The notes beneath the pieces were generated by a model, which was given only the letters and a program-made list of their open reading frames with translations, was not told the origin of the DNA and did not search any database. Below, piece by piece: positions 25,843 through 51,808 of a stretch of DNA of 53,346 nt. The stretch is from a virus (Duplodnaviria; Caudoviricetes), in IMG/VR virus record IMGVR_UViG_3300036982_000579, positions 1 to 53,346 of that record, one strand, 5' to 3'. Each line of letters begins with the position of its first letter. The first letter of the stretch is position 1. The position numbers and the translations under genes were made by a program.

Positions 25843-25990
25843 TTGGGTTGTCTTTTGGGTGGTTTTGGGGGTTGCTGGTTTTGGAAACCTGCGCCGTTAC
25901 TGGGCGAAGTGCGGGTTGTCCACCGGCGGGTAAGCCAGTTTTCTGGTTGTGGTGGCCGGTTCTAAGTGTTTCAGCCGGGGCCGGTCACCG

Positions 25991-26242
25991 CTATACGCCT
26001 GCGATCCGCAATGCGGTGTGGATGTCGCAGGCTTCAAGATAGGCGGATTCAAGAGTTGGGTATATGCCGTATGACTCGCCTGCTGCGGGTCCGTACTTGA
26101 CAACGATCCGATAGCCGGTTGGCCTTGGGAGGAGGATGATGCGTGCGCCGTTTTCGATGTTGGCGTTCCACCATGTGTGGGGTTCGGTGGTGGCGTGGCG
26201 TTGCCCGGTTGCTTTGATGGGGGTGAACTCGGGTGGGGTCAT
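25991..26242 (-). CDS. hypothetical protein
   Basis: ATGA coupling; GIYPTLESA motif. Confidence 0.55.
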   Translation of the reverse strand: MTPPEFTPIKATGQRHATTEPHTWWNANIENGARIILLPRPTGYRIVVKYGPAAGESYGIYPTLESAYLEACDIHTALRIAGV

Positions 26243-26361
26243 GCTGCTTCTCCTTCTTCTTGAGCTTCTTGTGTTGCGGCTTCGATGATTGCAAGGCATC
26301 GGGCTGCGCCGTGAATCTCGAATTGTTCTTGTAAGAACTGGATGATCTGTGCTTCCGTCAT
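26239..26361 (-). CDS. small hypothetical protein (40 aa, not in ORF track)
   Basis: AAGGAG RBS; MTEAQIIQFLQEQF... Confidence 0.5.
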   Translation of the reverse strand: MTEAQIIQFLQEQFEIHGAARCLAIIEAATQEAQEEGEAA

Positions 26362-26405
26362 TGCTGCTCCTTGTCGTTGTTTACTAATTTGATGTTGGTT
26401 AGTAG

Positions 26406-26567
26406 TTAGTTAGTAGTTGTGAAGATTGCGTTGTGTTCTTCTTCTGCTGCGATTTCGCAGTCCACGCAACGTCCGGTGGTTGGGACTACATGGCGTTCCC
26501 ACCCGCAGTCTTCGCATGTTGCGATTTCGTTGGCGGTGGCTGCTTCTAACAGTGCTTCGATATTCAT
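26406..26567 (-). CDS. small Zn-finger protein
   Basis: CEDC...CVDC. Confidence 0.5.
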   Translation of the reverse strand: MNIEALLEAATANEIATCEDCGWERHVVPTTGRCVDCEIAAEEEHNAIFTTTN

Positions 26568-26713
26568 ACTTCTTCTCCCTCGGTTACGGTGGCGCTGTGG
26601 TCGCCCTCGGTGCTTGTCCACTCGAATGCTCCACTCTGTTCAACCATGATGGCTGAGTGTGTGGCGAGTCCTTCGCAAGTTTCGCAGTTGGTGTGTGTCG
26701 TGGTCGATGTCAT
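26564..26713 (-). CDS. small hypothetical protein (leaderless)
   Basis: TTATCTAC-ATG after promoter. Confidence 0.5.
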   Translation of the reverse strand: MTSTTTHTNCETCEGLATHSAIMVEQSGAFEWTSTEGDHSATVTEGEEV

Positions 26714-26791
26714 GTAGATAACACTACTATAGCGGTGTGACATTATCAAGTCGATAATGCCTTATGGGGAAGATTTCTTCAGATTCTTTTT
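26714..26791 (-). promoter_or_regulatory. family-1 phage promoter
   Basis: AAAAAGAATCTGAAGAAAT...GACTTGATAATGTCACACC...TAGTGT. Confidence 0.7.
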
Positions 26792-26875
26792 AGACCCCCC
26801 CGACACGCACCCCGGCCCAGCCGTAACAGTCGCAAGAGCCGCTCCGACACTGGGCGGTCCGGCTGGCGGGGAGTC

Positions 26876-27031
26876 CTAACCCTCAACCTCAACATCAACA
26901 TCAGGTTTAGGGTTTTCGATCTCACCCCACGCTGCCTGCGTAATCCACCACGCTTCACGCATAGCCTCAGCCCACGACACCTTGCCGCCTGAGCCTTCAA
27001 CGATCTCACGGGCCAACCGCTCAACACTCAC
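26876..27031 (-). CDS. small hypothetical protein (51 aa, not in ORF track)
   Basis: GTGA overlap; VSVERLAREIVEG... Confidence 0.45.
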   Translation of the reverse strand: MSVERLAREIVEGSGGKVSWAEAMREAWWITQAAWGEIENPKPDVDVEVEG

Positions 27032-27207
27032 TTGCGGCTCTCCTGCATCTTGACAATGAGCCGGTCGATCTGATCTTCAAGAACGTCTAGCTGTGCCATT
27101 GCGATGATTTCCATTTCAAGGTTCTCGTCGCGCATTGCTTGAAGGCGTTGATCGTCAACCTTGTTCCACTCCTCGCGAAGTGTGTCGATCTGATAATCGT
27201 GTTCCAT
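27028..27207 (-). CDS. small coiled-coil protein (59 aa, not in ORF track)
   Basis: TGATG coupling; MEHDYQIDTLREEW... Confidence 0.55.
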   Translation of the reverse strand: MEHDYQIDTLREEWNKVDDQRLQAMRDENLEMEIIAMAQLDVLEDQIDRLIVKMQESRK

Positions 27208-27413
27208 CAGCCTGCTCCTGCTGTGAGGAACACGAACTCAAGTGTTCCGACATTGTAGCCGTCGGCGTTTCCTCGTCCGAGGAACTGATCTGCGAATAGC
27301 TGTGCTTCTTGGGCGTTGGAGAAGAAACCGAGCGGCATGTCTGCTCCGCTGACTCTCGCTGTGAAGTGTGCGGCTGCTGGTTCAGATGGGAAGATTCCGT
27401 ATGAGGAGTCCAT
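27207..27413 (-). CDS. hypothetical protein
   Basis: coupled ORF; G.F....A motif twice. Confidence 0.55.
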   Translation of the reverse strand: MDSSYGIFPSEPAAAHFTARVSGADMPLGFFSNAQEAQLFADQFLGRGNADGYNVGTLEFVFLTAGAG

Positions 27414-27652
27414 TAGAAGATCACCTCTGTCACGGGGATCAACAGCGAAGTGTTGCCGTTTACGGTGATGTCGATTGCTCGTTCCACTTGCGCTCGGGCG
27501 GGTGCGTTGCGTTCCGCTGCTGCACGGTTGTCGAACACACCGAACTCGCAGTTGCTAAACCACACGGTGATGTCGTTCGATTCAATGTTGAACGAACCGC
27601 TGACCTCTGTGGTTACTGAGAACCTCGGGGTGTTGATCTTGATTTCGGTCAT
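27413..27652 (-). CDS. hypothetical protein (DITVW family)
   Basis: AAGGAG RBS and family-2 leader. Confidence 0.6.
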   Translation of the reverse strand: MTEIKINTPRFSVTTEVSGSFNIESNDITVWFSNCEFGVFDNRAAAERNAPARAQVERAIDITVNGNTSLLIPVTEVIF

Positions 27653-27709
27653 CTGCTTGCTCCTTAGTTGTGATTGCTTATTTGATAACTCTATCGGAAG
27701 GGTGTGACA
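27653..27709 (-). promoter_or_regulatory. family-2 promoter/leader
   Basis: TGTCACACCC...TTATCAAATAAGCAATCACAAC.AAGGAGCAA. Confidence 0.65.
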
Positions 27710-27710
27710 G

Positions 27711-27932
27711 TTAGCCGTTCACAACGTGGCGAACGTGCTTGGCGAATCCGGTTTCAGGGTGGATCGGGATGCGACCGTATGACGGGGTGCCATCGGGGTG
27801 ACGGCCACCGAAGTCTGCGACGACGGTTTCGATTCCGTCCTCACGCTCAACACGAATCACATATCCGTGGTTGCCATCGGCAGGGCTTACGTCTGTCAGG
27901 TAGATCGAATCTCCGGGGGCTACGTTTAGCAT
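27711..27932 (-). CDS. hypothetical protein
   Basis: AAGGAG RBS. Confidence 0.55.
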   Translation of the reverse strand: MLNVAPGDSIYLTDVSPADGNHGYVIRVEREDGIETVVADFGGRHPDGTPSYGRIPIHPETGFAKHVRHVVNG

Positions 27933-28337: not shown

Positions 28338-29177
28338 ATGAGCAAACTTGCCGGGCTATCCCCATCCAGCGTTCAGCTATGGGAGCAATGTCCCCGGAAG
28401 TTCTGCGAGGAAAAGATGATGGGCAGATCAGGTGGCACGGGAGAAGCCGCGCTACTCGGCACGTTCGTCCACCTCGCACTCGAACACTTGATGCAACTGC
28501 CATCTGAGAAGCGTGTCATTGAGACTGCACGCAAGGTCGCGCGTTCGTCGTGGGCTGAGTTTGCTGCGACAAAGGAATGGATCGAGTGGGTTGCCGAAAC
28601 CGGGTTCGCTGATGAGCAAGCGTTTCGCCGTCGTGGTTGGGCAAGCGTCTGCGGCTATTTCCAAATGGAGAAGCCGAGTGATGTTGAGGTTGTAGCGACT
28701 GAGCGTTTCATCTCGGCCACGATTGAAGGCGTTCCGGTCCGAGGAATTGTCGACCGGCTTGATCGTGATGTGTTCGGCAATATCGTGATCGTCGATTACA
28801 AGACAGGCAAAGTTCCGTCGCCGTGGTTCCGTGGGCCGAAGATGCAACAACTCAACATCTATGCGGCGCTCGTCGAAGAAGTTGACGGTGTGCGACCTGA
28901 TGAAGGCCGGTTGTTGTTCACTACTTTCTCTGAGACTGTTGCTACTGATGTCACTGCTGAGTCGGTGTGGTCTGCGGTTGAAGTGTTGAAGAATACTTGG
29001 GAGGACATTCATCGTGCGATAGAAGATGACTTGTTTCCTGCGAAGGTTGGACCTTTGTGTGGTTGGTGTCCGTTTGTGGGTGACTGCCCTGATGGGTTGG
29101 CTGAGGTGAAGTCTCGTCGATCTGCGGGCAAATTGAAGAAGACTGCTCCGGCTTGGGAGTTAGCGGCGGGCGAGTGA
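28338..29177 (+). CDS. RecB-family/Cas4-like PD-(D/E)xK exonuclease
   Basis: LSPSS...CP, GTFVH, RGIVDRLD, IVDYKTG, QL.IY, CGWCPF...C. Confidence 0.85.
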   Translation: MSKLAGLSPSSVQLWEQCPRKFCEEKMMGRSGGTGEAALLGTFVHLALEHLMQLPSEKRVIETARKVARSSWAEFAATKEWIEWVAETGFADEQAFRRRGWASVCGYFQMEKPSDVEVVATERFISATIEGVPVRGIVDRLDRDVFGNIVIVDYKTGKVPSPWFRGPKMQQLNIYAALVEEVDGVRPDEGRLLFTTFSETVATDVTAESVWSAVEVLKNTWEDIHRAIEDDLFPAKVGPLCGWCPFVGDCPDGLAEVKSRRSAGKLKKTAPAWELAAGE

Positions 29178-29537
29178 TCGTTCCGCCAGTCCCGCCAGCG
29201 GCGGAATATGGCGGGAACCGGCGGGAATCGACCACTGGGCGGCGGGGACCGAGCGGCGGAAGGCGGGGAATACCGGCGGGGAGTGGCGGGCCGACGGCGG
29301 TTGAGCGGCGGAATATGGCGGCTGATCCGCCGAATCGACGGCGGAAGGCGGCGGCCTAGTGGTGGCCTAGTGGCCTGCTGGCGGCGGGTGGCGGGCGATG
29401 CAACGGCTGACGGCGGGCCGACGGCGGCTCAAGGCGGCGGATCAACGGCGGGCGGCGGGGAGCGCTGTGGCGGGCGGCGGCGGAATGGCGGGAATCGAAC
29501 GGCGGAACCCGGCGGTTGAGCGGCGGCGGCGGGCGGC
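29162..29537 (+). repeat. GGCGG-rich degenerate repeat tract
   Basis: dense GGCGG units; recurring GGCGGAATATGGCGG, GGCGGGCCGACGGCGG, GGCGGTTGAGCGGCGG. Confidence 0.85.
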
Positions 29538-29558
29538 ATCACTGGGTCGTTTACGCCC

Positions 29559-40771: not shown

Positions 40772-42343
40772 GTGGACCCGCTAGTCGTCATACCACCCGA
40801 ACTCCTAGCACTAGCAACCGAACACGAACGCGAGCAATACCGGCTGTACCTAATCGACCGAGCCGTCGCCGCCGACGACTGGGAAACATGGCTGCTGTCA
40901 ATGGCACCCGGCTACGCTTCAGCACCCTTCGGAGATCATCACATCAAGTTTTGGGAATGGGCATGGGACATACATCCAACAGAACGCCCGAGACCATTCG
41001 TTGCTATCTGGCCGCGAGGCGGAGCAAAGAGTACAAGCGCTGAGATGTGTGTCGTCGCGTTAGCCGCACGACAGAAACGCAACTACTGCCTCTACGTTTC
41101 GGAGACACAAGATCAGGCAGACGACCACGTTGCCAACATCGCTGCACTATTCGAGGATGAAGAAGTCGGATTCGCTTACCCCGAACTTGGTTCCCGGCTG
41201 ATGGGCAAGTTCGGATCAGCGAAAGGCTGGCGGCGCAACCGAGTCCGCACTGGGACCGGATTCACCGTTGACGCTGTTGGGCTTGACTCTGCTGCACGAG
41301 GAATCAAGCTGGAAAGTATGCGACCCGATCTGATGGTCTTTGACGACATCGACAGCGAAGCCGATTCCCAACTCGCAACAGATAAGAAGATCAGGACGAT
41401 CACCCGGAAGCTTCTCCCTGCCGGGTCGAACACCTGTGCTGTGATCGCAATTCAGAACAAGGTCCACGACGATTCGATTTTCGCCCAGCTTGCTGACGGG
41501 CGCGCTGACTTTCTTCGGGATCGGATTGTGTCAGGCCCGATACCGGCAGTTTGGAATCTTGGTTGGGTTGAAGAAGATGGTTTGTTCAAGATCGTTGACG
41601 GGCAAGAATCGTGGGAAGGTCAACCTGTCAATTCATCGCAAGCGTTGATGAATGATATTGGGCTGACAGCGTTCCTTGCTGAGTGTCAACACGCTACGGT
41701 CACGATGACGGGCGGGATGTTTGACCATATCAACTGGCCTCATTTGCATGTGACTGAAGCGGAGCTTCCTGTTATGCGAAGGGTGGTTGTCTGGTTGGAC
41801 CCTGCTGTGACTTCTACCGATTCGTCTGACTGTCAGGGTATGCAGTGCGACGGGCTAGGTGTTGATGGTCTGATCTATAGGCTGTGGTCGTGGGAAGGAC
41901 GGACGACACCGTTGGACGCTGTGAAGCGGGGTATCCGTGCGGCGATTCAGTGGAACGCAACGACATTGGGTATTGAATCGGATCAGGGTGGCGATACTTG
42001 GAAGGCTGTGTATCACCAAGCGTGTGAAGATTTGCGGGCCGCCGGGGAACTAACTGGGTCGGCTCCTCGGTTTGCTGCGGCGAAAGCGGGTGCTGGTCAC
42101 GGGTCGAAGATGACTCGCGCTCAAAGAATGCTTGTCGATTATGAGCGCAACAAAATCAGGCATCTGATCGGAACCCACCAGCAACTTGAACTGGGGCTGA
42201 TGCGGTTTCCGAAAGCGAAGCCTTACGATCTGGTTGACGCTGCGTATTGGTCGTGGGCTGATCTGGCGGGCAAGTCGAATCGTGGGCGTTCTCGTGTTGG
42301 GTCTGCTTCGGGGCAGACGGTCGGTGCGTTCAGTTTCAACTAA
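40772..42343 (+). CDS. terL: terminase large subunit
   Basis: WPRGGAKST Walker A, RG....RPDLMVFDD Walker B, WLDPA, GIESDQGG, FP....DLVDA nuclease motifs. Confidence 0.9.
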   Translation: MDPLVVIPPELLALATEHEREQYRLYLIDRAVAADDWETWLLSMAPGYASAPFGDHHIKFWEWAWDIHPTERPRPFVAIWPRGGAKSTSAEMCVVALAARQKRNYCLYVSETQDQADDHVANIAALFEDEEVGFAYPELGSRLMGKFGSAKGWRRNRVRTGTGFTVDAVGLDSAARGIKLESMRPDLMVFDDIDSEADSQLATDKKIRTITRKLLPAGSNTCAVIAIQNKVHDDSIFAQLADGRADFLRDRIVSGPIPAVWNLGWVEEDGLFKIVDGQESWEGQPVNSSQALMNDIGLTAFLAECQHATVTMTGGMFDHINWPHLHVTEAELPVMRRVVVWLDPAVTSTDSSDCQGMQCDGLGVDGLIYRLWSWEGRTTPLDAVKRGIRAAIQWNATTLGIESDQGGDTWKAVYHQACEDLRAAGELTGSAPRFAAAKAGAGHGSKMTRAQRMLVDYERNKIRHLIGTHQQLELGLMRFPKAKPYDLVDAAYWSWADLAGKSNRGRSRVGSASGQTVGAFSFN

Positions 42344-42381
42344 AAATGCAAGAAGCCCCTCCTTTGTGGAGGGGCTGAAGC
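42343..42381. terminator. intrinsic terminator between terL and ncRNA C
   Basis: AGCCCCTCC-TTTGT-GGAGGGGCT hairpin; T-rich tail on minus strand. Confidence 0.75.
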
Positions 42382-43185
42382 CATCTTGCTGACTAACCGA
42401 AAAGGCAATACGTCCTTTTGTCGGCATCGGTTGATACCGCCAAATTTTTGCACCATTGGGGGTGCCTGCAACCTCCCTTGCAGGTGGGGCCTATCTTCTG
42501 TCACCCGAAATCTACAACTTTCGGAACACCAGAGGATTCGTTCAGCGGTGGGACTTTGTTTCAGGCGATATTCCCTGTGCTGCTTTTTGCCTGTTGTTTG
42601 ATTGAGTTGAACTTCTTATAAGAGAAGCTGAAAGTAATTTCATGCACCTCATAACACATAGGTTTCCGGCTCAGCGAACTTGCGTCCCATACTGGCAGCT
42701 TAGTGAGCGGCGCTTGTACTAGCGTCCACTCCTTCAGCTTGTCGGTTTGCCCCGTCAGACACCACACTTGAGAAGTTTGCAACCCTCCGTTACTCACTCT
42801 CAACTCCTCTAACAAGAAGTTCAACACAATCAAGTTCTTAGAAGATGCCCTTGGACCGGCTACTTGCTTTCGTTCTTACTACTCCACGGATTGTGCGCAC
42901 GCACCGCTTCACCTCAGAACTAATTGCTTTCACCGTTCTCTACCTTCGCTCACCTACTTGCCCCATCCATCCACATCCCTTCGTTCAGGGATCGCTCGTT
43001 ATCCGTCAGGCGAGTCGTGGTCGTTAGCCGTCAGGGGATGCTTCATTTGGCGGGGTATGATGGCACCTCAGAAGTTCCAAGTTCATCATCTAAGAACTTG
43101 ATTGTTGTACTTGAGAGTCTTTGGTGTGCGGACCCTAACCGCCATGTTCCCCGGTGCTTCCGGTTCTTTCAGTTGCTTGCTTGTG
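42343..43185 (-). ncRNA. candidate large structured ncRNA C (~845 nt)
   Basis: promoter plus terminator; adjacent 22-bp and ~32-bp helices, the latter with five G-U pairs on minus strand; module shared with ncRNA F. Confidence 0.78.
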
Positions 43186-43252
43186 TAGATCAGTATACAG
43201 CATAGCGGGGACATTGCAAGTCAATATCAAACATTTCTTTAGATTTCTTTTT
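43183..43252 (-). promoter_or_regulatory. family-1 phage promoter (ncRNA C)
   Basis: AAAAGAAATCTAAAGAAAT...TTGACTTGCAATGTC...TGCTGTATACTGATCTAC. Confidence 0.8.
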
Positions 43253-43334
43253 CGACTCCAAACCGCCCGCCCGCCCAGCAGTAACGGCCCGCCCGTCTCC
43301 TTTACTGTCACACCCTGTCTGTAGTATCTGTTAC

Positions 43335-43565
43335 ATGATCTCAATACAGGAACTTGTAGGCGACAACACCGCAACCGGCTCTCTATGGGAATGCTTCACA
43401 CCCACACCTCACGCTTGCACCGGAATAGCAACAGTGGCAGTTACACAAACGCCTTGCTGCACCGCAGGAGCGGTCACAGAACAGTCATGGCAAGAAGCAC
43501 AAGCTGCTGCTGAACACGCTGAGGCATTGCGAGACGCAGCCGCTCAGAACGAGCTAGAGCTTTAG
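43335..43565 (+). CDS. hypothetical protein
   Basis: ORF after TGTCACACCC...TATCT element. Confidence 0.45.
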   Translation: MISIQELVGDNTATGSLWECFTPTPHACTGIATVAVTQTPCCTAGAVTEQSWQEAQAAAEHAEALRDAAAQNELEL

Positions 43566-43733
43566 AAAGCAATCAGGGCAGATGTCGTCCACGCCGGGCC
43601 GCTGACGTTCCCACCCGTATTGGGCTGCTGCTTCTTTGATTGCTTCAGCCGCGGCAGAAGCGGCGACAGGAGCATTGCGTTTACATCTATCGCATCTCAC
43701 GGTCCACCCCTTCTTTCTCAGTGCTGTAGTCAT
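43554..43733 (-). CDS. small Zn-finger protein (59 aa, not in ORF track)
   Basis: VRCDRC...GW...DICPDC. Confidence 0.6.
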   Translation of the reverse strand: MTTALRKKGWTVRCDRCKRNAPVAASAAAEAIKEAAAQYGWERQRPGVDDICPDCFLKL

Positions 43734-43742
43734 GCGAACAGG

Positions 43743-43892
43743 TTACTCAGGTTCAGGCCATTCGGTCGCATCGAACCGAGATGCCGCTTCTTGAGCGCAC
43801 TGACCGCAGATACCGCCGTACTGATTCCATTCAGACGGCCAGTACACCGGGTTGATATGACGGCAAGGCCATCCGCACCGAGGGCATGTCAT
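43743..43892 (-). CDS. small Zn-finger protein
   Basis: CPRC...CGQC. Confidence 0.5.
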   Translation of the reverse strand: MTCPRCGWPCRHINPVYWPSEWNQYGGICGQCAQEAASRFDATEWPEPE

Positions 43893-43984
43893 CTTGAACG
43901 AGTCTTTGCCTACACTTGGTGAGGTGATTTCGTGTCTAGGTAGTCTGTTAGAACGTGTACGAACTTGAACCAATGGAGAGTCCT

Positions 43985-44170
43985 ATGAGCGATATGGAAG
44001 CAGAAGTGTACTCGGGTGATATGCGTGGCTGTGATGAATGCGGAGTTGGGCCAGAAGATGAGTGTGTCCCTGATTGTCCGTGGGTAGCGGCGGCTGAAGA
44101 CGCAGCCACTACTGGGCCGCCGCCCGGCCCGGTTGCGTTGATCGACGTTCTAGCAAATGTTACGGAATGA
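43985..44170 (+). CDS. small Cys-rich protein
   Basis: GGAG RBS; CDECG....EC..DCP. Confidence 0.45.
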   Translation: MSDMEAEVYSGDMRGCDECGVGPEDECVPDCPWVAAAEDAATTGPPPGPVALIDVLANVTE

Positions 44171-44269
44171 TTGCATTACGTCTACATGTGCGCGTAGCCT
44201 TGAAACTCAACAGCCACCCGCTCATCCAAAACGGGTGGCTGTCGCGTATCTAACCGACAACTGAAAGAG

Positions 44270-44701
44270 GTGACCATGAGGCTGAATCTCAGGTCTGTAT
44301 CTATTGCGGCAATCGTCATGTTATCTGCCGTGTCAAGTATTGGCTGTACCCCGGAAGAAATAGCGTCCTACGCGACGATGAACCCGGCTGAACAAGCTGC
44401 TGTCAAAGCACATCTACAAGCACAAGCGGAACCTGTCGTGCAAGCGCACACGCCTCCGGGTGGTTTCCTCGCCTGTGTCCGGCGGCACGAGTCTGGCGGA
44501 AGCTACACCGCCAAGAATCCGAACAGCACCGCTTCAGGCGCATACCAGTTTCTTGATTCGACTTGGCGGACAATGAGCGCCCGAGCGGGTCACGCTGGGT
44601 GGGGGTCCGCACGCCACGCTCCGCCACACGTTCAGGACGCGGTTGCGGTTTACACCGTGAACAGCGGTTGGCGTTCAGCTTGGAACGGCACAGGTTGCTA
44701 A
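44270..44701 (+). CDS. exported Rpf/transglycosylase-like lysozyme-fold protein
   Basis: signal/lipobox-like SSIG-C; CVRRHESGG.Y, ASGAYQF..STW, A..AP..VQD..A, W...GC. Confidence 0.8.
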   Translation: MTMRLNLRSVSIAAIVMLSAVSSIGCTPEEIASYATMNPAEQAAVKAHLQAQAEPVVQAHTPPGGFLACVRRHESGGSYTAKNPNSTASGAYQFLDSTWRTMSARAGHAGWGSARHAPPHVQDAVAVYTVNSGWRSAWNGTGC

Positions 44702-44744
44702 CTGGGCCGCCGCCCGGCGGTTTCCCTCACGGGGTATCGCCGGG

Positions 44745-44960
44745 CTAACCCAACTTGAACATGTTGGCTAGGCGTTCAGGGCCGGGGGTGCCGTCAGCGG
44801 ACCGAGGGTTGTGGAGAAGGTCATGCAACTCGTTCAGCTTGCGCATCCGTTCAGTTATTGTTTGACCCTCGTAGATCCATCCGTCAGCGAGAAAGTCCAC
44901 GTTACTGTGTTCCGTTTTCAAGTGAATCATTGCTTCGCTGATACTGAAAAAGTCGTTCAT
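44745..44960 (-). CDS. hypothetical protein
   Basis: ATGA coupling. Confidence 0.5.
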   Translation of the reverse strand: MNDFFSISEAMIHLKTEHSNVDFLADGWIYEGQTITERMRKLNELHDLLHNPRSADGTPGPERLANMFKLG

Positions 44961-45262
44961 GGTTCCATCCGTCGAACGTCGAAGCCTGCCAGCGAAACAC
45001 GCCACGGCTCACAAAGCTGCATCCCGTTTTCACGGAACATCCACACGGTCATTTGACCTTTGTCGGTGTCTTCTTGGAACCGATCAAAGACCCGGATGCC
45101 TGCTTCCTTGAGTTGGATTCTGAGAATCTCATCCGCTCGGAACATTTCCGCTTTGCGTTCTTCGCCGCCGTTGCGGTCGTAATCTTGGACCGCCCGGTTG
45201 AACGCTTGCGCAACGTCGGTTTCCCGAATCGCTTTGATGACGCTGTAGGAGATTTCGTTCAT
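44957..45262 (-). CDS. hypothetical protein
   Basis: ATGA coupling. Confidence 0.6.
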   Translation of the reverse strand: MNEISYSVIKAIRETDVAQAFNRAVQDYDRNGGEERKAEMFRADEILRIQLKEAGIRVFDRFQEDTDKGQMTVWMFRENGMQLCEPWRVSLAGFDVRRMEP

Positions 45263-45507
45263 GCTGCCACCCGCTCAAAGACAAGGGCGAGTGTTGCTGA
45301 CACGGTTGCCTCGGAAGGCTCGCTGCTGGAACCGACACCCTCGTAGATGTAGCGCCAGAACTGAACGTCGCTTGCTGCATCTCGCAAGCACTCAAGATCG
45401 GCGGCGTTTGGAACTGCTTTGCCTTCTGCGATCCATCGGATCGTTTCGTCGGCCAACTTGCTGGCTAGTGCCATCCGGTTGGCTAGGTGTGCTGCGTGCA
45501 TCTTCAT
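45259..45507 (-). CDS. hypothetical protein
   Basis: family-2 leader, AAGGAG. Confidence 0.6.
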   Translation of the reverse strand: MKMHAAHLANRMALASKLADETIRWIAEGKAVPNAADLECLRDAASDVQFWRYIYEGVGSSSEPSEATVSATLALVFERVAA

Positions 45508-45567
45508 TTGGTTTGCTCCTTGTTGTTGTGATTACTTGTTAGTGATTATAGCTAGAGGGTGTGACAC
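45508..45567 (-). promoter_or_regulatory. family-2 promoter/leader
   Basis: GTGTCACACCC-N6-TATAAT...AAGTAATCACAAC..AAGGAGCAA. Confidence 0.7.
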
Positions 45568-45831
45568 TCAGTCGTCTTCGAGCATGTACTCGGAGAAGGG
45601 CGGTGTTGCGATGCGGACATTTACAATGCCCGTGATTGTGGTGACTGCGACGAACTCGTGAATGCAAGCGATGGCTTCTGCCTCGGTTGCGAACCAACCG
45701 ATGTTCATGTCATCCCACGCACCCGTGTCGGTGATGACAACTGCCTTGAACAACTTGTCGTCACCGTGATTGACTGCGACGAACTCGGCTAGGGCTTCTG
45801 CTTGTACTTGGGTGAGTGTTTGTGTTTCCAT
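45568..45831 (-). CDS. hypothetical protein
   Basis: family-2 leader; GWFATEAEA motif. Confidence 0.6.
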   Translation of the reverse strand: METQTLTQVQAEALAEFVAVNHGDDKLFKAVVITDTGAWDDMNIGWFATEAEAIACIHEFVAVTTITGIVNVRIATPPFSEYMLEDD

Positions 45832-45908
45832 CTTGGCTCCCTGTTGTTGTGATTGCTTATTTGATAAGTGTACTTGAAGGGTGTGACACTTTGTCGTGCC
45901 ACACCCTT
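45832..45908 (-). promoter_or_regulatory. family-2 promoter with inverted-repeat operator
   Basis: AAGGGTGTGGCAC-N6-GTGTCACACCCTT..TACACT TATCAAATAAGCAATCACAAC. Confidence 0.75.
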
Positions 45909-45915
45909 TCAGGTT

Positions 45916-46209
45916 TTAGTTGACGCACTCGGCGTTTGCCCGGCGAGCGAAGTCGATCTCCGCTGCGGTGAACCCTGCGGAAGCTGCGATCCGGCGGTCG
46001 ATGCGATCCGAGTGAATCGCTTGGGTGCAGGTTCCGCCGCTCATTGCGGTGAACAGTGCGAACACTGTTGCTTGAGCGTTTTCACGGCGTGTTGCAATCG
46101 CTCGGATGGCGAACGACTCGTCAGTGTTGTTCGCTGCCGCATCCGCTGCGATGTTGAAGTTGTTGACGTAGTTGTCGTTGATTGTCTGGATGATCTGTGT
46201 CGATGTCAT
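45916..46209 (-). CDS. hypothetical protein (leaderless)
   Basis: ATCTAC-ATG after promoter. Confidence 0.6.
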   Translation of the reverse strand: MTSTQIIQTINDNYVNNFNIAADAAANNTDESFAIRAIATRRENAQATVFALFTAMSGGTCTQAIHSDRIDRRIAASAGFTAAEIDFARRANAECVN

Positions 46210-46277
46210 GTAGATTATTATACTGCACTGCCATGACATTGCAAGTCAATAATCAAGATTTCTTCAGATTTCTTTTA
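46210..46277 (-). promoter_or_regulatory. family-1 phage promoter
   Basis: AAAAGAAATCTGAAGAAAT...TTGACTTGCAATGTCA...TATAAT. Confidence 0.8.
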
Positions 46278-46509
46278 GACGCTCCGCTTTCCAGAAGTCG
46301 CCTGATCGAACATCACAACCATCAGTCAACCGTTGAGCAATCCGAATCACCCGGTCAATCTCACGAACCATCTCCGGCCCACACTCAATCGCCGCCAACG
46401 GATACTCCGCATGATTGGTAGCAAGTTCCTCAGTCGCCTTGACCATCAGGTCCAACGCTTCAAGCCACTGCTGTGCAGGCTTGTAGTTGCTGCTCAGTAC
46501 ATCACTCAT
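46264..46509 (-). CDS. hypothetical protein
   Basis: GGAGGAG RBS, TAATG coupling. Confidence 0.55.
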   Translation of the reverse strand: MSDVLSSNYKPAQQWLEALDLMVKATEELATNHAEYPLAAIECGPEMVREIDRVIRIAQRLTDGCDVRSGDFWKAERLKEI

Positions 46510-46652
46510 TACTTCTCCTCCTGTTTAGGTGTCGGCTGCACGTTCTTCCACGCAGTCAGCTTCCGACTAATACTCATTAGCCGATCCACTTCTTTCTCGG
46601 GTGCTTCTTCTTCTGGATGCTCGGCATCACTCGCCGCTTCTTCAGTAGTCAT
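46509..46652 (-). CDS. small hypothetical protein (47 aa)
   Basis: MTTEEAASDAEH... Confidence 0.4.
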   Translation of the reverse strand: MTTEEAASDAEHPEEEAPEKEVDRLMSISRKLTAWKNVQPTPKQEEK

Positions 46653-46912
46653 ATGTTCAACAGTATAAGGAATGGACTAGACGCAAAACGGCCCAGTCGT
46701 ACTGGGCCGCCCGCCGACTTGTCTAACTGTAAACGTCTAGTTGAGGTTGAGGGTTTGGCCCAGTGGTCAGCCCGCCGGGGCCAAGTCTGGACTAGGGGTT
46801 GAGAGTTTGGGTTTGTAAATGAATCCAAAGAAAAGTTTAGTGGAAAGTCGTTTAGCGTCTAACGCTGTCTATATAGTGAGTCCTACAACACCAAACACGG
46901 AGGCAATAACAC

Positions 46913-47899
46913 ATGGCGAAGAACACAGACATCACAATCCTCGGCAACGGGGGAAGCGTTCACGCAAACGAAAAGCACGACGGCCCGGTTCCTTTCGACC
47001 GGGTGCGTTCACTGTTCGACTTCAAGGTCGAATACACCCCGCTCTATACGCATGACGCTTTCGGTGACTCAGAGAAACTTCCGAACCGTCAGGCGATCCG
47101 TCGTACTGACACCGGGCTGATCCTCAACACGGTGTCCAAGTCTCACGGACTTCACCAGTTCAGCGACGTACTCGTGGACAACCTGTTCACTCTGCTTGAT
47201 GCGTCTGACAATGATCTTCAAGTTTCGGGTGCGGGTCTCCTGAAGAACGGTGCAGTTGGTTGGGTTCAGGTTCAGGCACCTTGCTTGGAAGCTGGCGAAG
47301 GCGATGTCGCCCCAACTCTCACGCTTGCATCTTCGCACGATGGGTCACTCGCCACTTCATATCGGATGGGCATGTTTCGCTTCATCTGTTCCAACCAGAT
47401 CGGCGCTCTCCGCAGGAAAAGCGACAACGTGTTCAAGTTGCGTCACACCCTCAACTCGTCGATGAACTTCACGACGGCTCGCAACACTCTCGGTCTGATG
47501 TGGAAGCAGGCTGAGTCCTTCAACGAGGAAGTCAACACGCTAATCAACCTTTCGGTGACCGACACTGAGTTCTACCGAATTGTGAACCGCTTGGCTCCGA
47601 TGCCACCGGAGTCCGCAACTGAGGCTGCTCGTACCCGGTGGGAGAATCGTGTTGAGTCGGTGTCCAACATCTATCGCAACGATGAGCGTGTTGGTGACTT
47701 CCGTGGAACCGGGTGGGGAGTTGTTCAGGCGTTCAATACTTATCGCCAGCATGAGCGCCCGTTCCGTGCGAATGGAACCGCTGGAACTACGTCACGACTT
47801 GGTCGCACGATGGGCGACTTCTTGTCGGGTGCGATTGACCTTGATGACCAGAAGGTGACGGCGGCGGTGTTCGCTGAGTCTGCTCGTAAGGGCTTGTGA
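46913..47899 (+). CDS. DUF932 family protein
   Basis: LASSHDGS, RFICSNQ, LRHT, GTGWGVVQA motifs. Confidence 0.85.
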   Translation: MAKNTDITILGNGGSVHANEKHDGPVPFDRVRSLFDFKVEYTPLYTHDAFGDSEKLPNRQAIRRTDTGLILNTVSKSHGLHQFSDVLVDNLFTLLDASDNDLQVSGAGLLKNGAVGWVQVQAPCLEAGEGDVAPTLTLASSHDGSLATSYRMGMFRFICSNQIGALRRKSDNVFKLRHTLNSSMNFTTARNTLGLMWKQAESFNEEVNTLINLSVTDTEFYRIVNRLAPMPPESATEAARTRWENRVESVSNIYRNDERVGDFRGTGWGVVQAFNTYRQHERPFRANGTAGTTSRLGRTMGDFLSGAIDLDDQKVTAAVFAESARKGL

Positions 47900-47915
47900 G
47901 TTGTTGTTGGTGATG

Positions 47916-47945
47916 GGGGGACCGGGTAGCGCCGGTCCCTTTGTC
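47916..47945 (+). terminator. intrinsic terminator
   Basis: GGGACCGG-TAGCG-CCGGTCCC-TTTGT. Confidence 0.65.
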
Positions 47946-48000
47946 GCGTGTTGGGTTCAACCCGGCGGGCCGTGTCACTGGGAGAGGCGGCGGGTCGTCG

Positions 48001-48082
48001 AAAAAGAATCCAAAAGAAATCCAAGAAATATCTCATTTGGAGTTGCAAACTGTCAGACACATGTAGTACTGTTATCTACATA
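48001..48082 (+). promoter_or_regulatory. family-1 phage promoter (ncRNA D)
   Basis: AAAAGAAATCCAAGAAAT...TTGCAA-18-TACTGT TATCTACATAA. Confidence 0.75.
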
Positions 48083-48619
48083 AGCAGTGAGCAACAAGAA
48101 CCGGACACACAACCGGGGGCGAATCGCAGCAAGACGCACAAAGCGTGTAGCGGGTTCCGGGTGACACACCACCTAAAAGGAAATGTGACGGTTGCACACT
48201 CAGCAACAGAAAGAGCGAGTGCTAGTTAGATTCTGTTTGATACCAGAAGACGATTGAAGTGCATGAAGTAGCCTCCGGGTGTAAGCCTTCCTCTCCTAAG
48301 ACATCCTCAGTACGGCTTCCTCAACAGTAACTAGAATGACTCAAGTTGAAACTTGCGGTATCGGACCCAAGACGATTGAGGTGACCAAGTAGTCGAAAGA
48401 CGTAAGCCTTGCTCTCCCAACACATCCCTAGTACGGCACCTCCGCAGCAACTTGAGTGGTTGGTCAGTGGAATCGTCTGGAGACAGACAGGCACACAGAG
48501 TCAAGTGAAAGCGTCGTCAAGAGCGTAATCACCGAAGCGTATTCGGTCGGGGAGCAAGGCAGCCCGATGTTGCGTCACAGGGATAGAAACTTGCAGCTCT
48601 TATTCAGAACATCGGTTCC
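48079..48619 (+). ncRNA. candidate large structured ncRNA D (~540 nt) with internal duplicated module
   Basis: own promoter; nested helices GAACCGG/TCGGTTC, TGTGACG/CGTCACA, CTGTTTG/CAGACAG; ~90-nt covarying repeat. Confidence 0.72.
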
Positions 48620-48630
48620 ACTGACCAACC

Positions 48631-48697
48631 AAAAGAAATATCAAACAATCTTCTGTTTCGACTTGCGGACTGTAGTCGCATCGACTACTATCTTGTG
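48631..48697 (+). promoter_or_regulatory. family-1 phage promoter (ncRNA E)
   Basis: AAAAGAAATATCAAA...GACTTGCGG-17-TACTAT. Confidence 0.7.
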
Positions 48698-49774
48698 TGT
48701 GGGGGGGCAACAACCTCACAACAGCAACTTGAAAACAGAGACAAGCTTGAGCGGCTAAGAGATCAGCAAGGCCCCCACGCAAAGAACGGGACATTCCAAA
48801 CCGGCAACAACGTGACAAACCTTCAACAGACTCTTAGCCCTCAAGAAAGCAATGAGCGCCTTGTAGGTTGCTCACGCAATTAGCAGCACCAACCAAAGTT
48901 CAGCAGATGTCCGCACGTCGGAAACTGTCGGCAGCGGAGGTTGACAGTAGGAACCTGAGTTAGGTACTTGAGCAGCAATCGCAACAGCATGGAAACTGAG
49001 TAGGGTTCCGGGGCTGGAGGATCGTATCCTTCACGCTGCGGGTCAAAACCTCAAAGGTGATAAACGCTGAAGCCTTTAGCTGACACCGATCCATACCGCC
49101 CTACGCTAATCAAACGGACTAATTACCCGGAGCGTGAACAACCTATAAGGCATTCAATGCCCCGAAGTCCGGCAAGGCTGGAATCAACTTCATATAACCA
49201 CCGCGAAGTTAGCGGCGAGCCGGTGAAAAGCCGACCCCCATAGCGGCGGGCAGACTGCTTAGGCTTCTTCTAGTCCTAAAGGGCCAACATCAACACAGTT
49301 GGAATTAGAACCCATAGATTTCCCCACGGGGTGAGAAATACCGTGTGCGTAGTCAGCGTTGAGTTGGACTAAGCGGGTGGGATACCCGCACACATCGCTA
49401 TCACGCAAGTGATACAGGATTGAATCTTGATGAGATAGGCGGAGTTCGTCGGGTCACTCCCGAAACGATCCAAGCGTCAACTCAAGATTCAGGGGAGGGT
49501 TCGGCAAGGCCGGTATTCCGCAGACAAGCACCTTAGCCCGAGCTTAGTGAGCGAAGGAGAGACCGCCGCTGGACTGTAGCCCGGAATGCTGAACCCCCCC
49601 ACCTTCTAGTACTTCAGCGGGTAGCACCGTAGGAGCCGACCAGCAGACAGATGCGGAAAGGAAGTCTGATACAGGCTGAACAGATGCGGCGTGCCGCTCA
49701 AACTCAGTGCAACGACGACTATTCCAAACGCCGCTGCTATAGGGGAGCCGGTGCTGCCCACTGAAGTACTAGAA
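48698..49774 (+). ncRNA. candidate large structured ncRNA E (~1075 nt)
   Basis: no ORF of 60 aa or more in any frame 48884-49605; many long-range helices; 26-bp terminal helix. Confidence 0.78.
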
Positions 49775-49840
49775 AAGAATCTCAAAGATATTTGCAAATG
49801 GCCTTGACTCTTGTAGCCACATCAACTACATTAGTTCTTG
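49773..49840 (+). promoter_or_regulatory. family-1 phage promoter (ncRNA F)
   Basis: AAAAGAATCTCAAAGATAT...TTGACT-17-TACATT. Confidence 0.75.
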
Positions 49841-50558
49841 TAAGGGAGAAACAAGCCCTAGCACGCAACTTGAAAACAGAGACAAAGCATCACGACAAGA
49901 AATACAAAGTCGCTTCCTCGAAAGAGGACACAACGGAGGATGGACCTTGCCCACTCAATAAGCCACGCCAATGGCTTGAGAGGAGCAACACGAAAGTGCA
50001 AGGTGTGGAAGTAGTAGTAGCTGTTTCTGCCAATCGAAAGGTTGAACTATCCAAAGACGCACCCTGAGAAATCAGGGGCATGAGGTTGAGAGCAGCACCC
50101 GCTTCGGCGGGGCCGATACCGAGGCACGGTATCGGGGAGAAAATGGATAACCGCTGCCGCAAGCTAACGCTTGCCACCGCTACTACGGTGAACTCAGGGC
50201 AATCGCAGGCTCGCCCCGCAAGGGACGCAGAGCCGCAAAGGAATACTGGAAGGCTAGACACGGCAACCCACGGTTCGGGGTTGGCGTGTGCCTCAACTGA
50301 ACCAAGCACCGCACCATCTCCGGTCTATGAGATGGGAGGCACCATGCAGCATCGGGAATATCGCCTCAACCAAGTCCCAACGCTGAACGAAACCGCAGAT
50401 TGTGGCTGCGGATAGGAGTAGCTGAACTTGTCAGCGGGGTCTAGCCTGCCCGCCTAACGAACAAGGTAGACGGGGCTTGCAAGTACATAGGAACTGCTTG
50501 CAAGCCTCGCAACAAACAAGCCCTGACGATTCGTTCGTGCAGGGCTGTTTGCGTTTTT
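49840..50558 (+). ncRNA. candidate large structured ncRNA F (~720 nt)
   Basis: four GAAA, one GCAA and one cUUCGg capped hairpins; terminator; module shared with ncRNA C. Confidence 0.78.
50514..50558 (+). terminator. intrinsic terminator after D-E-F block
   Basis: CAAACaAGCCCTG...CAGGGCTGTTTG then CGTTTTT. Confidence 0.65.
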
Positions 50559-50562
50559 GGAC

Positions 50563-50690
50563 CCGCCGCTATTCCGCCGCTATTCCGCCGCTATTCCGCC
50601 GTTGATCCGCCGTTGATCCGCCGTTGATCCGCCGTTGAAATGGCGGTCTTCCGCCGCCAATCCGCCACACCGCCCGCCGCCGCCGGACGG
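50563..50690 (+). repeat. 11-bp tandem repeat
   Basis: (CCGCCGCTATT)x3 then (CCGCCGTTGAT)x~4, then degenerate CCGCC units. Confidence 0.9.
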
Positions 50691-50914
50691 CCCAGCGCCC
50701 AGTAGCGTCAAGCCGATCTGGTACACTTGCTCATATCGGGTCCAAAACACTCACGGGGCCGGTGACCCAATACGCGAAGAAGCCGGACGATTAGTACTCG
50801 CCCGGCCCTTCTAAGACACCTCCGCCATACCCATTGGCGTGTCAGTTCCTGAGTCCAAGCATACAGTACTTGGTCGGGGTTGCACACTTCAGGGTCCGGC
50901 AGGGAAGGACTGAA

Positions 50915-51808
50915 GTGACGATCAGAGTTGAACACAGAACACAGTTCACAGTTGTTGACTCAAGAACTATCAACGATGAAGCCTTGTCGTTGCGCGCCAC
51001 TGGGCTGCTTGTGTGGCTTCTTGATAAACCGGATGGTTGGCGGATCAACTCAATAGAGATCAGTAAGCGGTGCAAGGAAGGTCGTGATGCTATCCGTGCT
51101 GCGATAGCGGAGCTTGAAGAAGCGGGCTATTTGACGCGTGAAAAGTATCGTGGCCCGGATGGTCGTTGGGTGAATGAGTCGGTTGTTCGTGAACGTCCGC
51201 TTGTTGAACCAGATGTGCAAATCATTGAACCAGACACAGACTTTGTTGATAGTCATATTGACCGGGGACTGGAAACCCGTCGCCGGATAACCGGAGCCGG
51301 AGAAACGGGTTCCGGTTTTTCAGGCCCTATTATCAGTACTAAGAGTCAAGACTATAAAAAGACTATAAAGACTTATGTCAACGAAACAGAAAAAGCGGAA
51401 ACGGAAGCTGCTTCTTTACCGCCTCGTTCTGAACTTCAACTCGTTGACGCAGGGCAGATAACAAAAAACGTGGGGACAGCGGAGCGGGTGATGGAAGCGT
51501 GGGTCGCCGCCACCGGGCGCGCACCGGGGAAAGTGAAGTTGAACGCTAAACGTAGGGCTGCTGTTGCTGCCCGGTTGCGGGAGGGGTATACCGAGGAGGA
51601 CTTGATTGCTGCGGCACGGGGGATTGCGTTATCTGCTTGGCATACCGGGGATAACCCTGATGGGAAGAAGTTTGATGATCTGCTTGTTGCGATCAGGGAC
51701 GGTGAGCGGGTTGAGCGGTTCAGGGACATCTACGAGGCTGGCGGTGAACGTGGCCGTATGTCGTCTACGGATCAGGTCATGGCTTTGTACGCTCAGGAGC
51801 AAGCATGA
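50915..51808 (+). CDS. replication initiator (N-terminal wHTH)
   Basis: FTVV....I.D..LSLRA.GLL.WLL..PDGW...EGRDAI.AAI.ELE.AGYL; upstream of loader and helicase. Confidence 0.75.
   Translation: MTIRVEHRTQFTVVDSRTINDEALSLRATGLLVWLLDKPDGWRINSIEISKRCKEGRDAIRAAIAELEEAGYLTREKYRGPDGRWVNESVVRERPLVEPDVQIIEPDTDFVDSHIDRGLETRRRITGAGETGSGFSGPIISTKSQDYKKTIKTYVNETEKAETEAASLPPRSELQLVDAGQITKNVGTAERVMEAWVAATGRAPGKVKLNAKRRAAVAARLREGYTEEDLIAAARGIALSAWHTGDNPDGKKFDDLLVAIRDGERVERFRDIYEAGGERGRMSSTDQVMALYAQEQA

What the first reader, a model, noticed from the sequence alone, without database searches (positions are those of the whole stretch)
48698..49774. ncRNA E: a >1-kb RNA with long-range pairings and a possible pseudoknot/switch
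Helices seen: 48746-48761/48831-48845; GTTCAGCA ~48897/TGCTGAAC ~49587; TTCCGGGCT ~49005/AGCCCGGAA ~49578; 49421-49430/49482-49491; TATCAC-GCAA-GTGATA; and a 26-bp terminal helix 49604-49629/49749-49774 (one C-A, one U-G). The segment CCCCATAGCGGCGG (~49236) can pair with CCGCCGCTG (~49563) or with CCGCTGCTATAGGGG (~49731) inside the terminal domain. It would be larger than GOLLD (~800 nt). I see no group I or II intron core.
Basis: partly seen in the sequence, partly recalled or inferred. Interest (0 to 1): 0.78.

Follow-up and report, generated by a model that had tools for sequence, protein, structure and literature searches.

The report
Modular structured non-coding RNA in phage
A promoter-driven, protein-free stretch of an uncultivated phage folds into a conserved two-domain RNA with swappable hairpins, apparently a new phage-specific structured RNA of unknown job, but not the single giant switch RNA first proposed.

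Summary
The window is a phage record. 48698-49774 lies in a 2.9-kb ORF-free, A-rich stretch between a DUF932 gene and the replication origin (iterons 50549-50677, initiator gene 50834). It is not coding. Folding beats shuffles on the + strand (z -4.6; hairpin z -5.5). In 7 distinct relatives a consensus fold keeps 96.9% of cells paired, with 21 of 166 pairs changed on both sides.

The conserved part is only about 490 nt: domain D1 (48849-49160, closed by a long-range helix) and domain D2 (49421-49599). The other parts are indel modules:
- 48746-48845
- the 259-nt insert 49161-49420
- the terminal hairpin 49604-49774

The proposed long-range helix GTTCAGCA/TGCTGAAC fails: its 3' strand covaries with 49493-49506 instead. 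The proposed switch partners co-occur only in this phage.

A second promoter follows the hairpin. No Rfam family matches. RNA-library contigs of relatives cover the region.

Verdict: a real, lineage-restricted structured ncRNA, one of three tandem non-coding units. Its function is unknown.

The parts
48628..48691 (+). Promoter module P2: an A-rich upstream element, -35 TTGCGG (48663-48668), a 17-nt spacer and -10 TACTAT (48686-48691). The predicted start is about 48697-48699.
   Evidence: Read. It belongs to a repeated promoter-module family with about 12 copies in the window. It is conserved in W, A, B, G and L. The simple promoter scan did not list it.
48697..48745 (+). 5' G-run hairpin (48697-48720) followed by a 20-nt leader motif (48725-48744). 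The motif recurs exactly at 49866-49885, after promoter P3.
   Evidence: One search finds 2 exact copies against 0 expected. (D2) reports a 74-nt direct repeat at 70% identity.
48746..48845 (+). Variable stem-loop VD1, with a 15-bp basal helix 48746-48761/48831-48845.
   Evidence: It forms in the MFE. It is replaced in L and N and deleted in L033.
48849..49160 (+). Conserved domain D1, a multi-branched fold closed by the long-range helix 48849-48877/49132-49160. Inner helices are 48879-84/49105-10, 48889-94/48939-44, 48947-51/49100-04, 48973-88/49066-82 and 49003-20/49029-51.
   Evidence: Alignment A1 of 7 sequences, the RNAalifold consensus, pair counts and the coordinate map.
49161..49420 (+). 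Variable linker VD2. It is 259 nt in W and A and about 61-68 nt in B, G, L, N and L033. It contains the GCAA-capped hairpin 49399-49414 and 49236-49249.
   Evidence: One RNA-library contig carries 66 letters here.
49421..49599 (+). Conserved domain D2: hairpin arm 49421-49491, and arm 49493-49599 closed by helix 49493-49506/49587-49599.
   Evidence: Covariance model R1 finds exactly one copy in each E-bearing source and none elsewhere.
49604..49774 (+). Accessory terminal hairpin VD3, with a 26-bp basal helix. It is not followed by a U tract.
   Evidence: A shortened version is present in N. It is absent from A and L, and no match was found in B, G or L033.
49772..49832 (+). Promoter module P3 (-35 TTGACT 49804-49809, -10 TACATT 49827-49832). 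It starts the next non-coding unit, which runs to the terminator-like hairpin at 50519-50556.
   Evidence: The structure of unit 3 is.

Best explanation
E is a lineage-specific, non-coding, structured RNA of a tailed phage.

What is shown or inferred about its make-up:
- It is transcribed rightwards from a sigma-70-type promoter (P2) of the phage's own repeated promoter family.
- It is the middle unit of a roughly 2.5-kb non-coding, three-promoter stretch. The three promoters start at about 48079, 48698 and 49840. The stretch ends at a terminator-like hairpin (50519-50556) a few bases before the origin iterons.
- Its functional core is two independently folding domains, D1 (312 nt) and D2 (179 nt), whose helices are kept by compensatory changes.
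- Three peripheral elements (VD1, VD2, VD3) are gained, lost or swapped between relatives, as in other large structured RNAs.

What is inferred about how it works (not shown):
- The folded RNA acts in trans as a stable scaffold or decoy for a protein or another RNA during infection, rather than as a leader for a gene.
- The 26-bp hairpin is a double-strand-specific (RNase III-type) processing or 3'-protecting element that separates E from the next unit.

The structure and the non-coding nature are shown here. Transcription is supported only weakly. The function is inference.
For: Non-coding:
- No frame longer than 149 aa exists in E under any single stop reassignment.
- Substitutions show no period-3 bias, and indels are mostly 1-2 nt.
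- Period-3 power is 1.78, against 8.52 in coding parts.

Structure:
- Folding z is -4.60 on the + strand and -2.69 on the - strand.
- The RNAalifold consensus has 166 pairs; 96.9% of cells are paired.
- 21 pairs changed on both sides, against 14.9 +/- 1.8 in shuffles (0 of 500 as high) and 1-5 in slid controls.
- With a structure predicted from W alone, 11 pairs changed on both sides, against 6.3 +/- 1.6 (2 of 500) and 1-4 in slid controls.

Strand:
- There are 109 G-U cells against 7 A-C cells.
- Alifold energy is -166.2 on the + strand and -146.7 on the reverse complement.

Promoters: the module recurs about 12 times in the window.

Modularity.

RNA libraries: contigs from 3 runs of 1 study cover 48721-49059 and 49139-49586 of close relatives.

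No downstream gene: the next ORF lies beyond a terminator-like hairpin and the iterons.
Against: - Only 7 distinct sequences were available, about 4 lineages and all 80% identical or more. Most double changes are shared by one clade (B, G, L033).
- The consensus structure was derived from the same alignment it was tested on.
- One of the two count-type measures is not above shuffles: further pair types are 46, against 50.7 (495 of 500 shuffles as high).
- Local 150-nt folding is no better than in coding DNA.
- RNA-library contigs cannot show strand, ends or expression level, and DNA carry-over is not excluded.
- P2 was not picked by the simple promoter scan.
- No partner protein, target or phenotype is known.
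- The family was found in only 8 viral and 2 further metagenome contigs.
Confidence: 0.6

Rival explanations
1. One reading: a single RNA of more than 1 kb (48698-49774) held together by long-range pairings, with a pseudoknot or switch in which 49236-49249 alternates between 49563-49571 and 49731-49745.
For: - All segments exist.
- The full-length MFE encloses the molecule by pairing the 5' G-run with the C-run at about 49592-49600.
- Similar end pairing is possible in B, G and L033, with duplex energy about -21 kcal/mol (no shuffle control).
Against: - 48898/49587 is complementary in 1 of 7 sequences, while 49587-49599 covaries with 49493-49506.
- 49236-49249 is present in 2 of 7 (W, A) and 49731-49745 in 2 of 7 (W, N). 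Only W has both.
- A and L lack 49599-49909 altogether.
- Inside the hairpin domain, the 49731 segment pairs locally in both W and N.
Confidence: 0.08
2. Origin-linked role in cis. The three rightward promoters and their transcripts would serve replication by activating or priming the adjacent iteron origin. Alternatively, iteron-like octamers in the RNA or DNA would titrate the initiator. The conserved folds would tune this.
For: - The non-coding stretch ends a few bases before 11-nt-period iterons (50549-50677), which precede a replication-initiator gene.
- The iteron core octamer occurs 16 times in the window against 2.07 expected. Two of these lie in E, at 49242 (-) and 49563 (+), the latter conserved in 6 of 7.
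Against: - A terminator-like hairpin with a T-rich tail lies between the transcripts and the iterons.
- E is about 950 nt from the iterons and is separated from them by another promoter and unit.
- Two octamers in 1 kb is weak enrichment.
- Transcriptional activation would not need conserved, covarying folds.
Confidence: 0.17
3. No RNA-level function. The stretch would be a recombination-prone junction of promoter cassettes and hairpins between gene modules, with the apparent covariation arising from few lineages and a structure fitted to the data.
For: - Relatives differ by large indels and carry different cargo genes in the same interval.
- Local z-scores are ordinary.
- There are few independent lineages.
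- One count measure is not above shuffles.
Against: - D1 and D2 are kept in all 7 sequences, while the flanks are swapped.
- 96.9% of cells are paired, against 30-40% in slid controls.
- Several helices hold 2-6 double changes with almost no disruptions.
- The G-U to A-C asymmetry is 109 to 7.
- The signal persists with a single-sequence structure.
Confidence: 0.12
4. Hidden protein-coding genes: small ORFs, a recoded stop, or assembly frameshifts.
For: Several 60-100-aa ORFs can be drawn.
Against: - No long frame appears under any stop reassignment.
- There is no period-3 signal.
- Indels of 1-2 nt and whole-hairpin replacements occur between relatives.
- The 93-aa ORF at 47948-48229 is 39.7% identical as protein where the DNA is 93.5% identical.
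Confidence: 0.03

Closest known systems
GOLLD and ROOL: large 'ornate' RNAs associated with phages and prophages
   Same: - E is phage-borne, several hundred nucleotides long, multi-domain and A-rich.
- It has no associated ORF and no known function.
- It carries variable peripheral elements.
- GOLLD, ROOL and OLE form homo-oligomers according to the abstract of PMC12286853 (seen in the search listing).
   Different: - E shows no sequence or structure match to any Rfam model.
- There are no tRNA genes nearby; none is found in the window. The link of GOLLD and ROOL to tRNA genes is recalled, not checked here.
- E is one of three tandem promoter-driven units next to a replication origin.
- E is known from only about 10 contigs.
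- Oligomerisation is untested.
RNase III processing hairpins between early transcripts of T7-like phages (recalled from established knowledge)
   Same: A long, nearly perfect double-stranded stem (26 bp) lies between two transcription units without a U tract. A double-strand-specific nuclease could cut it, or it could protect a 3' end.
   Different: The whole element is 171 nt, with a branched or looped tip. It is absent from most relatives. Cleavage is untested.
ColE1 RNA II-type origin-proximal structured transcripts (recalled)
   Same: A structured non-coding transcript is made from a promoter upstream of the origin and reads towards it.
   Different: - A terminator-like hairpin precedes the iterons.
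- The origin is iteron- and initiator-dependent.
- No antisense partner was seen.
- E is not the origin-nearest unit.
Candidate structured RNAs catalogued from IMG/VR (PMC10690425; passages read)
   Same: They come from the same data source and rest on the same comparative logic. Single hairpins of E might be among them.
   Different: Those motifs are 29-151 nt long (passage in section 2.1). Their alignments are in supplements that I could not open, so overlap is unknown.

Membership tests
GOLLD / ROOL / OLE / HEARO and all other Rfam 15 families | Match to the family covariance model. | tested here: not met
   There are 0 matches at gathering score in the window and in 6 relatives' loci. At E up to 10 only chance-level hits appear (asX2, SNORD95, CDKN2B-AS; E 4-8.5).
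GOLLD / ROOL | Located in phage or prophage DNA. | tested here: met
   The window is a virus record with tape-measure, terminase, endolysin and replication genes.
GOLLD / ROOL | Frequent neighbourhood of tRNA genes (recalled feature). | tested here: not met
   ARAGORN finds 0 tRNA genes in the window.
GOLLD / ROOL / OLE | Homo-oligomeric RNA-only assembly. | not testable with these tools
   The only lead is a 9-nt loop holding a 6-nt palindrome (49118-49126), invariant in 7 of 7.
Group I / group II introns | Catalytic core matched by the intron models, with flanking exons or an intron-encoded protein. | tested here: not met
   No intron model hit appears even at E up to 10. There is no interrupted gene and no reverse transcriptase or homing endonuclease ORF in 47900-50830.
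Intrinsic terminator (for the 26-bp hairpin) | A G+C-rich stem followed directly by a U tract. | tested here: not met
   The sequence after 49774 is A-rich. The terminator scan lists nothing there.
RNase III-type processing site (for the 26-bp hairpin) | About 20 bp or more of nearly perfect double-stranded RNA. | tested here: met
   24 of 26 positions form Watson-Crick pairs, and the domain folds with z -5.52. Cleavage itself is not testable here.
ColE1 RNA II-type primer transcript | The transcript runs into the origin. | tested here: inconclusive
   A terminator-like hairpin at 50519-50556 lies before the iterons. It was read by eye and from the alifold model and is not listed by the scan.
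Sigma-70-type promoter (P2) | -35 and -10 hexamers with 16-18 nt spacing. | tested here: inconclusive
   TTGCGG-17-TACTAT falls below the scan's threshold. However, it belongs to a roughly 12-copy module family that includes the scan-positive P3.

The most novel reading that the evidence does not exclude
The 2.5-kb non-coding stretch encodes a set of previously unknown large phage RNAs. E's conserved D1-D2 core would be an autonomous 'ornate' RNA that assembles with itself, for example through the invariant palindromic loop at 49118-49126. Alternatively it assembles with a host factor into a particle used for host takeover or counter-defence, with the swappable hairpins tuning specificity. That would add a new class to the very short list of giant phage RNAs (GOLLD, ROOL).
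Probability: 0.2. Interest if true: 0.8.

Novelty: new member of a known kind. Interest (0 to 1): 0.55.

Why it matters
Phage genomes are normally packed with genes. Here about 5% of a phage genome is spent on three tandem, promoter-driven, structured non-coding RNAs next to the replication origin. Large structured phage RNAs are few, and none has a known function. A new, unrelated example offers another system in which to ask what such RNAs do. This one has clearly separable conserved domains and naturally occurring domain-deletion variants (A, L, L033, N). If it is only a lineage-specific curiosity, it still documents that long non-coding early transcripts with conserved folds exist in uncultivated phages and are missed by short-motif screens.

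Tried and rejected
- Rfam scans at gathering and permissive thresholds gave nothing.
- DNA searches of 'phages' and 'plasmids' found no match.
- In genome contigs, the E 20-mer gave 0 hits and the DnaB protein gave 0 relatives. The host therefore stays unknown. Protein matches in isolated phages are about 30% identical, mostly to actinophages, which is not informative.
- The metagenome scan returned only 3 loci, 1 of them the same contig as L020 and 1 near-identical to it.
- Three different viral-contig patterns returned the same 7 contigs. An eighth locus, L028, was a chance 18-mer hit with no other similarity.
- Covariance model R1 (D2) found no extra or diverged copies in 17 sources. L012, L013, L014, L017, L021, L023, L010 and L008 were negative.
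- Stop-codon recoding is rejected.
- Local 150-nt z-scores do not single out E. The first scan timed out at 22.9 kb.
- RNA-library contigs leave 49716-49916 uncovered, and depth falls to about 10-15 over 50520-50720. Contigs begin at 48066 and end at 50522, and adapter sequence abuts 50523 and 50809. These are suggestive of transcript ends, but contigs cannot show ends or strand, so I do not count them.
- The 5'-3' end pairing and iteron-octamer enrichment are kept as ideas only.
- Literature searches found no named RNA matching this context. Supplements of PMC10690425 were not available.

Full report
**Context**

The window is a 53,346-base IMG/VR virus record, linear and estimated 66% complete. 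It encodes a tape-measure protein, terminase, endolysin, exonuclease, a DUF932 protein (46913-47899), a replication initiator (50834-51808) and a DnaB-type helicase.

Between the DUF932 gene and the initiator lie 2.9 kb without any frame of 150 aa or more. A exceeds T on the + strand there (AT skew about +0.24).

Just upstream of the initiator is an array of roughly nine 11-nt-period repeats (50549-50677), which I read as origin iterons. A hairpin with a T-rich tail precedes it (50519-50556). I read that hairpin by eye. It is paired in the alifold model but is not listed by the scan.

**Is it coding?**

No. Four results agree:
- Under the standard code or any single stop reassignment, the longest frame inside E is 149 aa.
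- Substitutions between relatives show no codon phase (chi-square p 0.10-0.83), and small indels are mostly 1-2 nt.
- Period-3 power is 1.78 in 47900-50850, against 8.52 in clearly coding parts.
- The 93-aa ORF at 47948-48229 is 39.7% identical as protein in a relative whose DNA is 93.5% identical.

**Promoters and units**

A module made of an A-rich upstream element, a -35 hexamer and a -10 hexamer recurs about 12 times in the window on both strands. Three copies face rightwards in this stretch:

| Promoter | -35 | Spacer | -10 | Coordinates |
|---|---|---|---|---|
| P1 | TTGCAA | 18 | TACTGT | 48043-48072 |
| P2 | TTGCGG | 17 | TACTAT | 48663-48691 |
| P3 | TTGACT | 17 | TACATT | 49804-49832 |

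Only P3 passes the simple scan.

P2 and P3 are each followed by a short hairpin and then an identical 20-nt leader motif, at 48725 and 49866 (74-nt repeat).

No terminator follows E. Transcripts from P2 would therefore run on to about 50556 unless they are processed.

**Relatives**

Flanking proteins and DNA patterns retrieved the same small set of contigs.

- Seven distinct E sequences were aligned: W, A=L019, B=L015, G=L018, L=L020, N=L022 and L033.
- Left out as duplicates of the same contigs or identical sequence: L005/L027, L006/L025, L009/L016/L029, L011/L030, L024 and L026/L032.
- Also left out: L034 (99.8% identical to L020), L007/L031 (D2 only), L021 (ends before D1) and L028 (chance hit).
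- Nothing was found in isolated phages, plasmids or 185,579 species' genomes.

**Modularity**

- D1 (48849-49160) and D2 (49421-49599) are present in all 7 sequences.
- 49161-49420 is 259 nt in W and A, but 61-68 nt of unrelated sequence in the other five.
- 48765-48846 is missing in L033, and the equivalent region is replaced in L and N.
- 49599-49909 (the hairpin, P3 and the leader) is missing in A and L, where D2 is joined directly to the next unit.
- N keeps a shortened hairpin, and B, G and N carry an extra module of about 160 nt after D2.
- From the BLAST coordinates, the distance from the P2 start to the end of D2 is roughly 600 nt (L033), 710 (B, G), 730-760 (N, L) and 900 (W, A).

**Structure**

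Thermodynamics:
- The + strand 48698-49598 folds with z -4.60 (0 of 20 shuffles as good), against -2.69 for the - strand.
- The hairpin domain folds with z -5.52 (0 of 200).
- Local 150-nt windows are ordinary, with mean z about -0.4 compared with -0.18 in coding DNA. The signal therefore comes from longer-range helices.

Consensus fold (RNAalifold on the 7 sequences), with pair counts:

| Measure | Observed | Shuffled | Shuffles as high |
|---|---|---|---|
| Predicted pairs | 166 | - | - |
| Cells paired | 96.9% | 93.3% | 0 of 500 |
| Pairs changed on both sides | 21 | 14.9 +/- 1.8 | 0 of 500 |
| Covariation score | 0.173 | 0.107 | 0 of 500 |
| Further pair types | 46 | 50.7 | 495 of 500 |

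- Slid controls give 1-5 double-changed pairs and 30-40% of cells paired.
- The count of further pair types is not above shuffles.

Because that structure was fitted to the alignment, I repeated the count with the MFE of W alone:

| Measure | Observed | Shuffled | Shuffles as high |
|---|---|---|---|
| Cells paired | 89.5% | 88.0% | 0 of 500 |
| Pairs changed on both sides | 11 | 6.3 +/- 1.6 | 2 of 500 |

Slid controls there give 1-4. This is weaker, but it points the same way.

Strand:
- G-U cells outnumber A-C cells 109 to 7.
- The reverse complement gives a poorer consensus fold (-146.7 against -166.2 kcal/mol).
- Together these point to the + strand.

The best single helix is 49493-49506/49587-49599, with 6 pairs changed on both sides and three fully complementary haplotypes.

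D1 is closed by a 25-pair helix whose strands lie about 290 nt apart (48849-48877/49132-49160). By my own reading, N carries an inserted G matched by an inserted C in this helix. The alignment scores it as mismatches.

- The 8-bp match 48898/49587 is of a kind expected about 8 times by chance in a sequence like this. It is complementary only in W, because its 3' strand covaries with a different partner.
- The 7-bp match 49006/49580 never varies informatively.
- The alternative partners proposed for a switch lie in modules that are not shared: 49236-49249 only in W and A, and 49731-49745 only in W and N. Inside the hairpin domain the latter is paired locally in both W and N.
- The comparative data therefore give no support for a pseudoknot or switch, though they cannot exclude a W-specific one.

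**Expression**

- Three metatranscriptome runs of one study hold parts of the stretch.
- Their contigs, 85-97% alike, cover relatives' unit 1, the E leader, D1 (48721-49059), the W/A-type insert plus D2 (49139-49586) and unit 3.
- One variant carries a much reduced E, with 134 and 165 letters in place of 48745-49133 and 49450-49927.
- Contigs cannot prove transcription, strand or ends.

**Neighbours**

Unit 3 (about 49840-50556) is also structured. RNAalifold on 4 sequences predicts 188 pairs, 12 of them changed on both sides. Local z is -5.2 and -5.6. E is thus one member of a tandem set.

**Known families**

No Rfam model matches. There are no tRNA genes. No reverse transcriptase, nuclease or other RNA-partner gene is adjacent. 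By eye, the extra genes in relatives look like a ParB-methylase fusion, a terminase-like protein and a pentapeptide protein; I did not run them through Pfam.

The closest kind is the large phage-associated RNAs GOLLD and ROOL (PMC12286853, abstract seen). E is not a member of either family. A screen of IMG/VR for structured RNAs reported motifs of 29-151 nt only (PMC10690425, passages read). Its supplements were not available to me.

**Verdict**

E is a genuine, lineage-restricted, modular structured non-coding RNA with a two-domain core of about 490 nt. It is promoter-driven, sits next to the replication origin, and has no known function. The '>1 kb, long-range, switch' reading is not supported.

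Noticed in passing
window 50549-50677: About nine tandem 11-nt-period repeats with core CCGCCGCT/CCGCCGTT lie directly upstream of the replication-initiator gene. They are probably origin iterons.
   Followed up: partly
window 29160-29540: A G-rich stretch (42% G) is densely packed with GGCGG-type motifs. It includes 5 copies of the iteron core octamer on the - strand, about 21 kb from the origin and just before a promoter module. It may be a second initiator-binding or control locus.
   Followed up: partly
window 49840-50556: The next non-coding unit, driven by P3, is itself a conserved structured RNA: 188 consensus pairs with 12 compensatory in 4 sequences, and local z down to -5.6. It ends in a terminator-like hairpin.
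   Followed up: partly
window 48079-48630: The first non-coding unit, driven by P1, holds an internal direct repeat at 121-nt spacing (48266-48316/48387-48437, 76%) and a 19-nt, 95% complementary long-range helix (48457-48475/48613-48631).
   Followed up: no
window, about 12 sites (+ strand 29559, 33771, 48000, 48628, 49772; - strand 26792, 28267, 32079, 38128, 40610, 43263, 46279): A repeated promoter module (a doubled AAGAAAT-type upstream element, -35 and extended -10) recurs at these sites. Several copies lead into ORF-poor stretches that are A-rich on the transcribed strand.
   Followed up: partly
window 44699-46909, 25840-27713, 42341-44203: These are further long stretches without frames of 150 aa or more. 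45001-45600 has local + strand z of -3.5 to -4.7. More non-coding RNAs may lie here.
   Followed up: no
L019 7001-8641; L015 8889-10550 (-); L015 10555-11007; L022 4087-5793 (-): Relatives carry different cargo genes in the same DUF932-to-origin interval. By eye these are a ParB-like plus DNA-methylase fusion, a terminase-like protein on the opposite strand and a pentapeptide-repeat protein.
   Followed up: no
window 49118-49126: A 9-nt hairpin loop holding a 6-nt self-complementary sequence is invariant in 7 of 7 sequences. Its layout resembles a kissing-loop dimerisation site.
   Followed up: no
window 20431-22047 (-): A 538-aa ORF combines a DNA-methylase motif with a pyridoxal-phosphate-dependent enzyme domain, an unusual fusion.
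   Followed up: no
window 50523 and 50809: RNA-library contigs of relatives end at these places with sequencing-adapter sequence attached. This may mark defined RNA ends on either side of the iterons.
   Followed up: no
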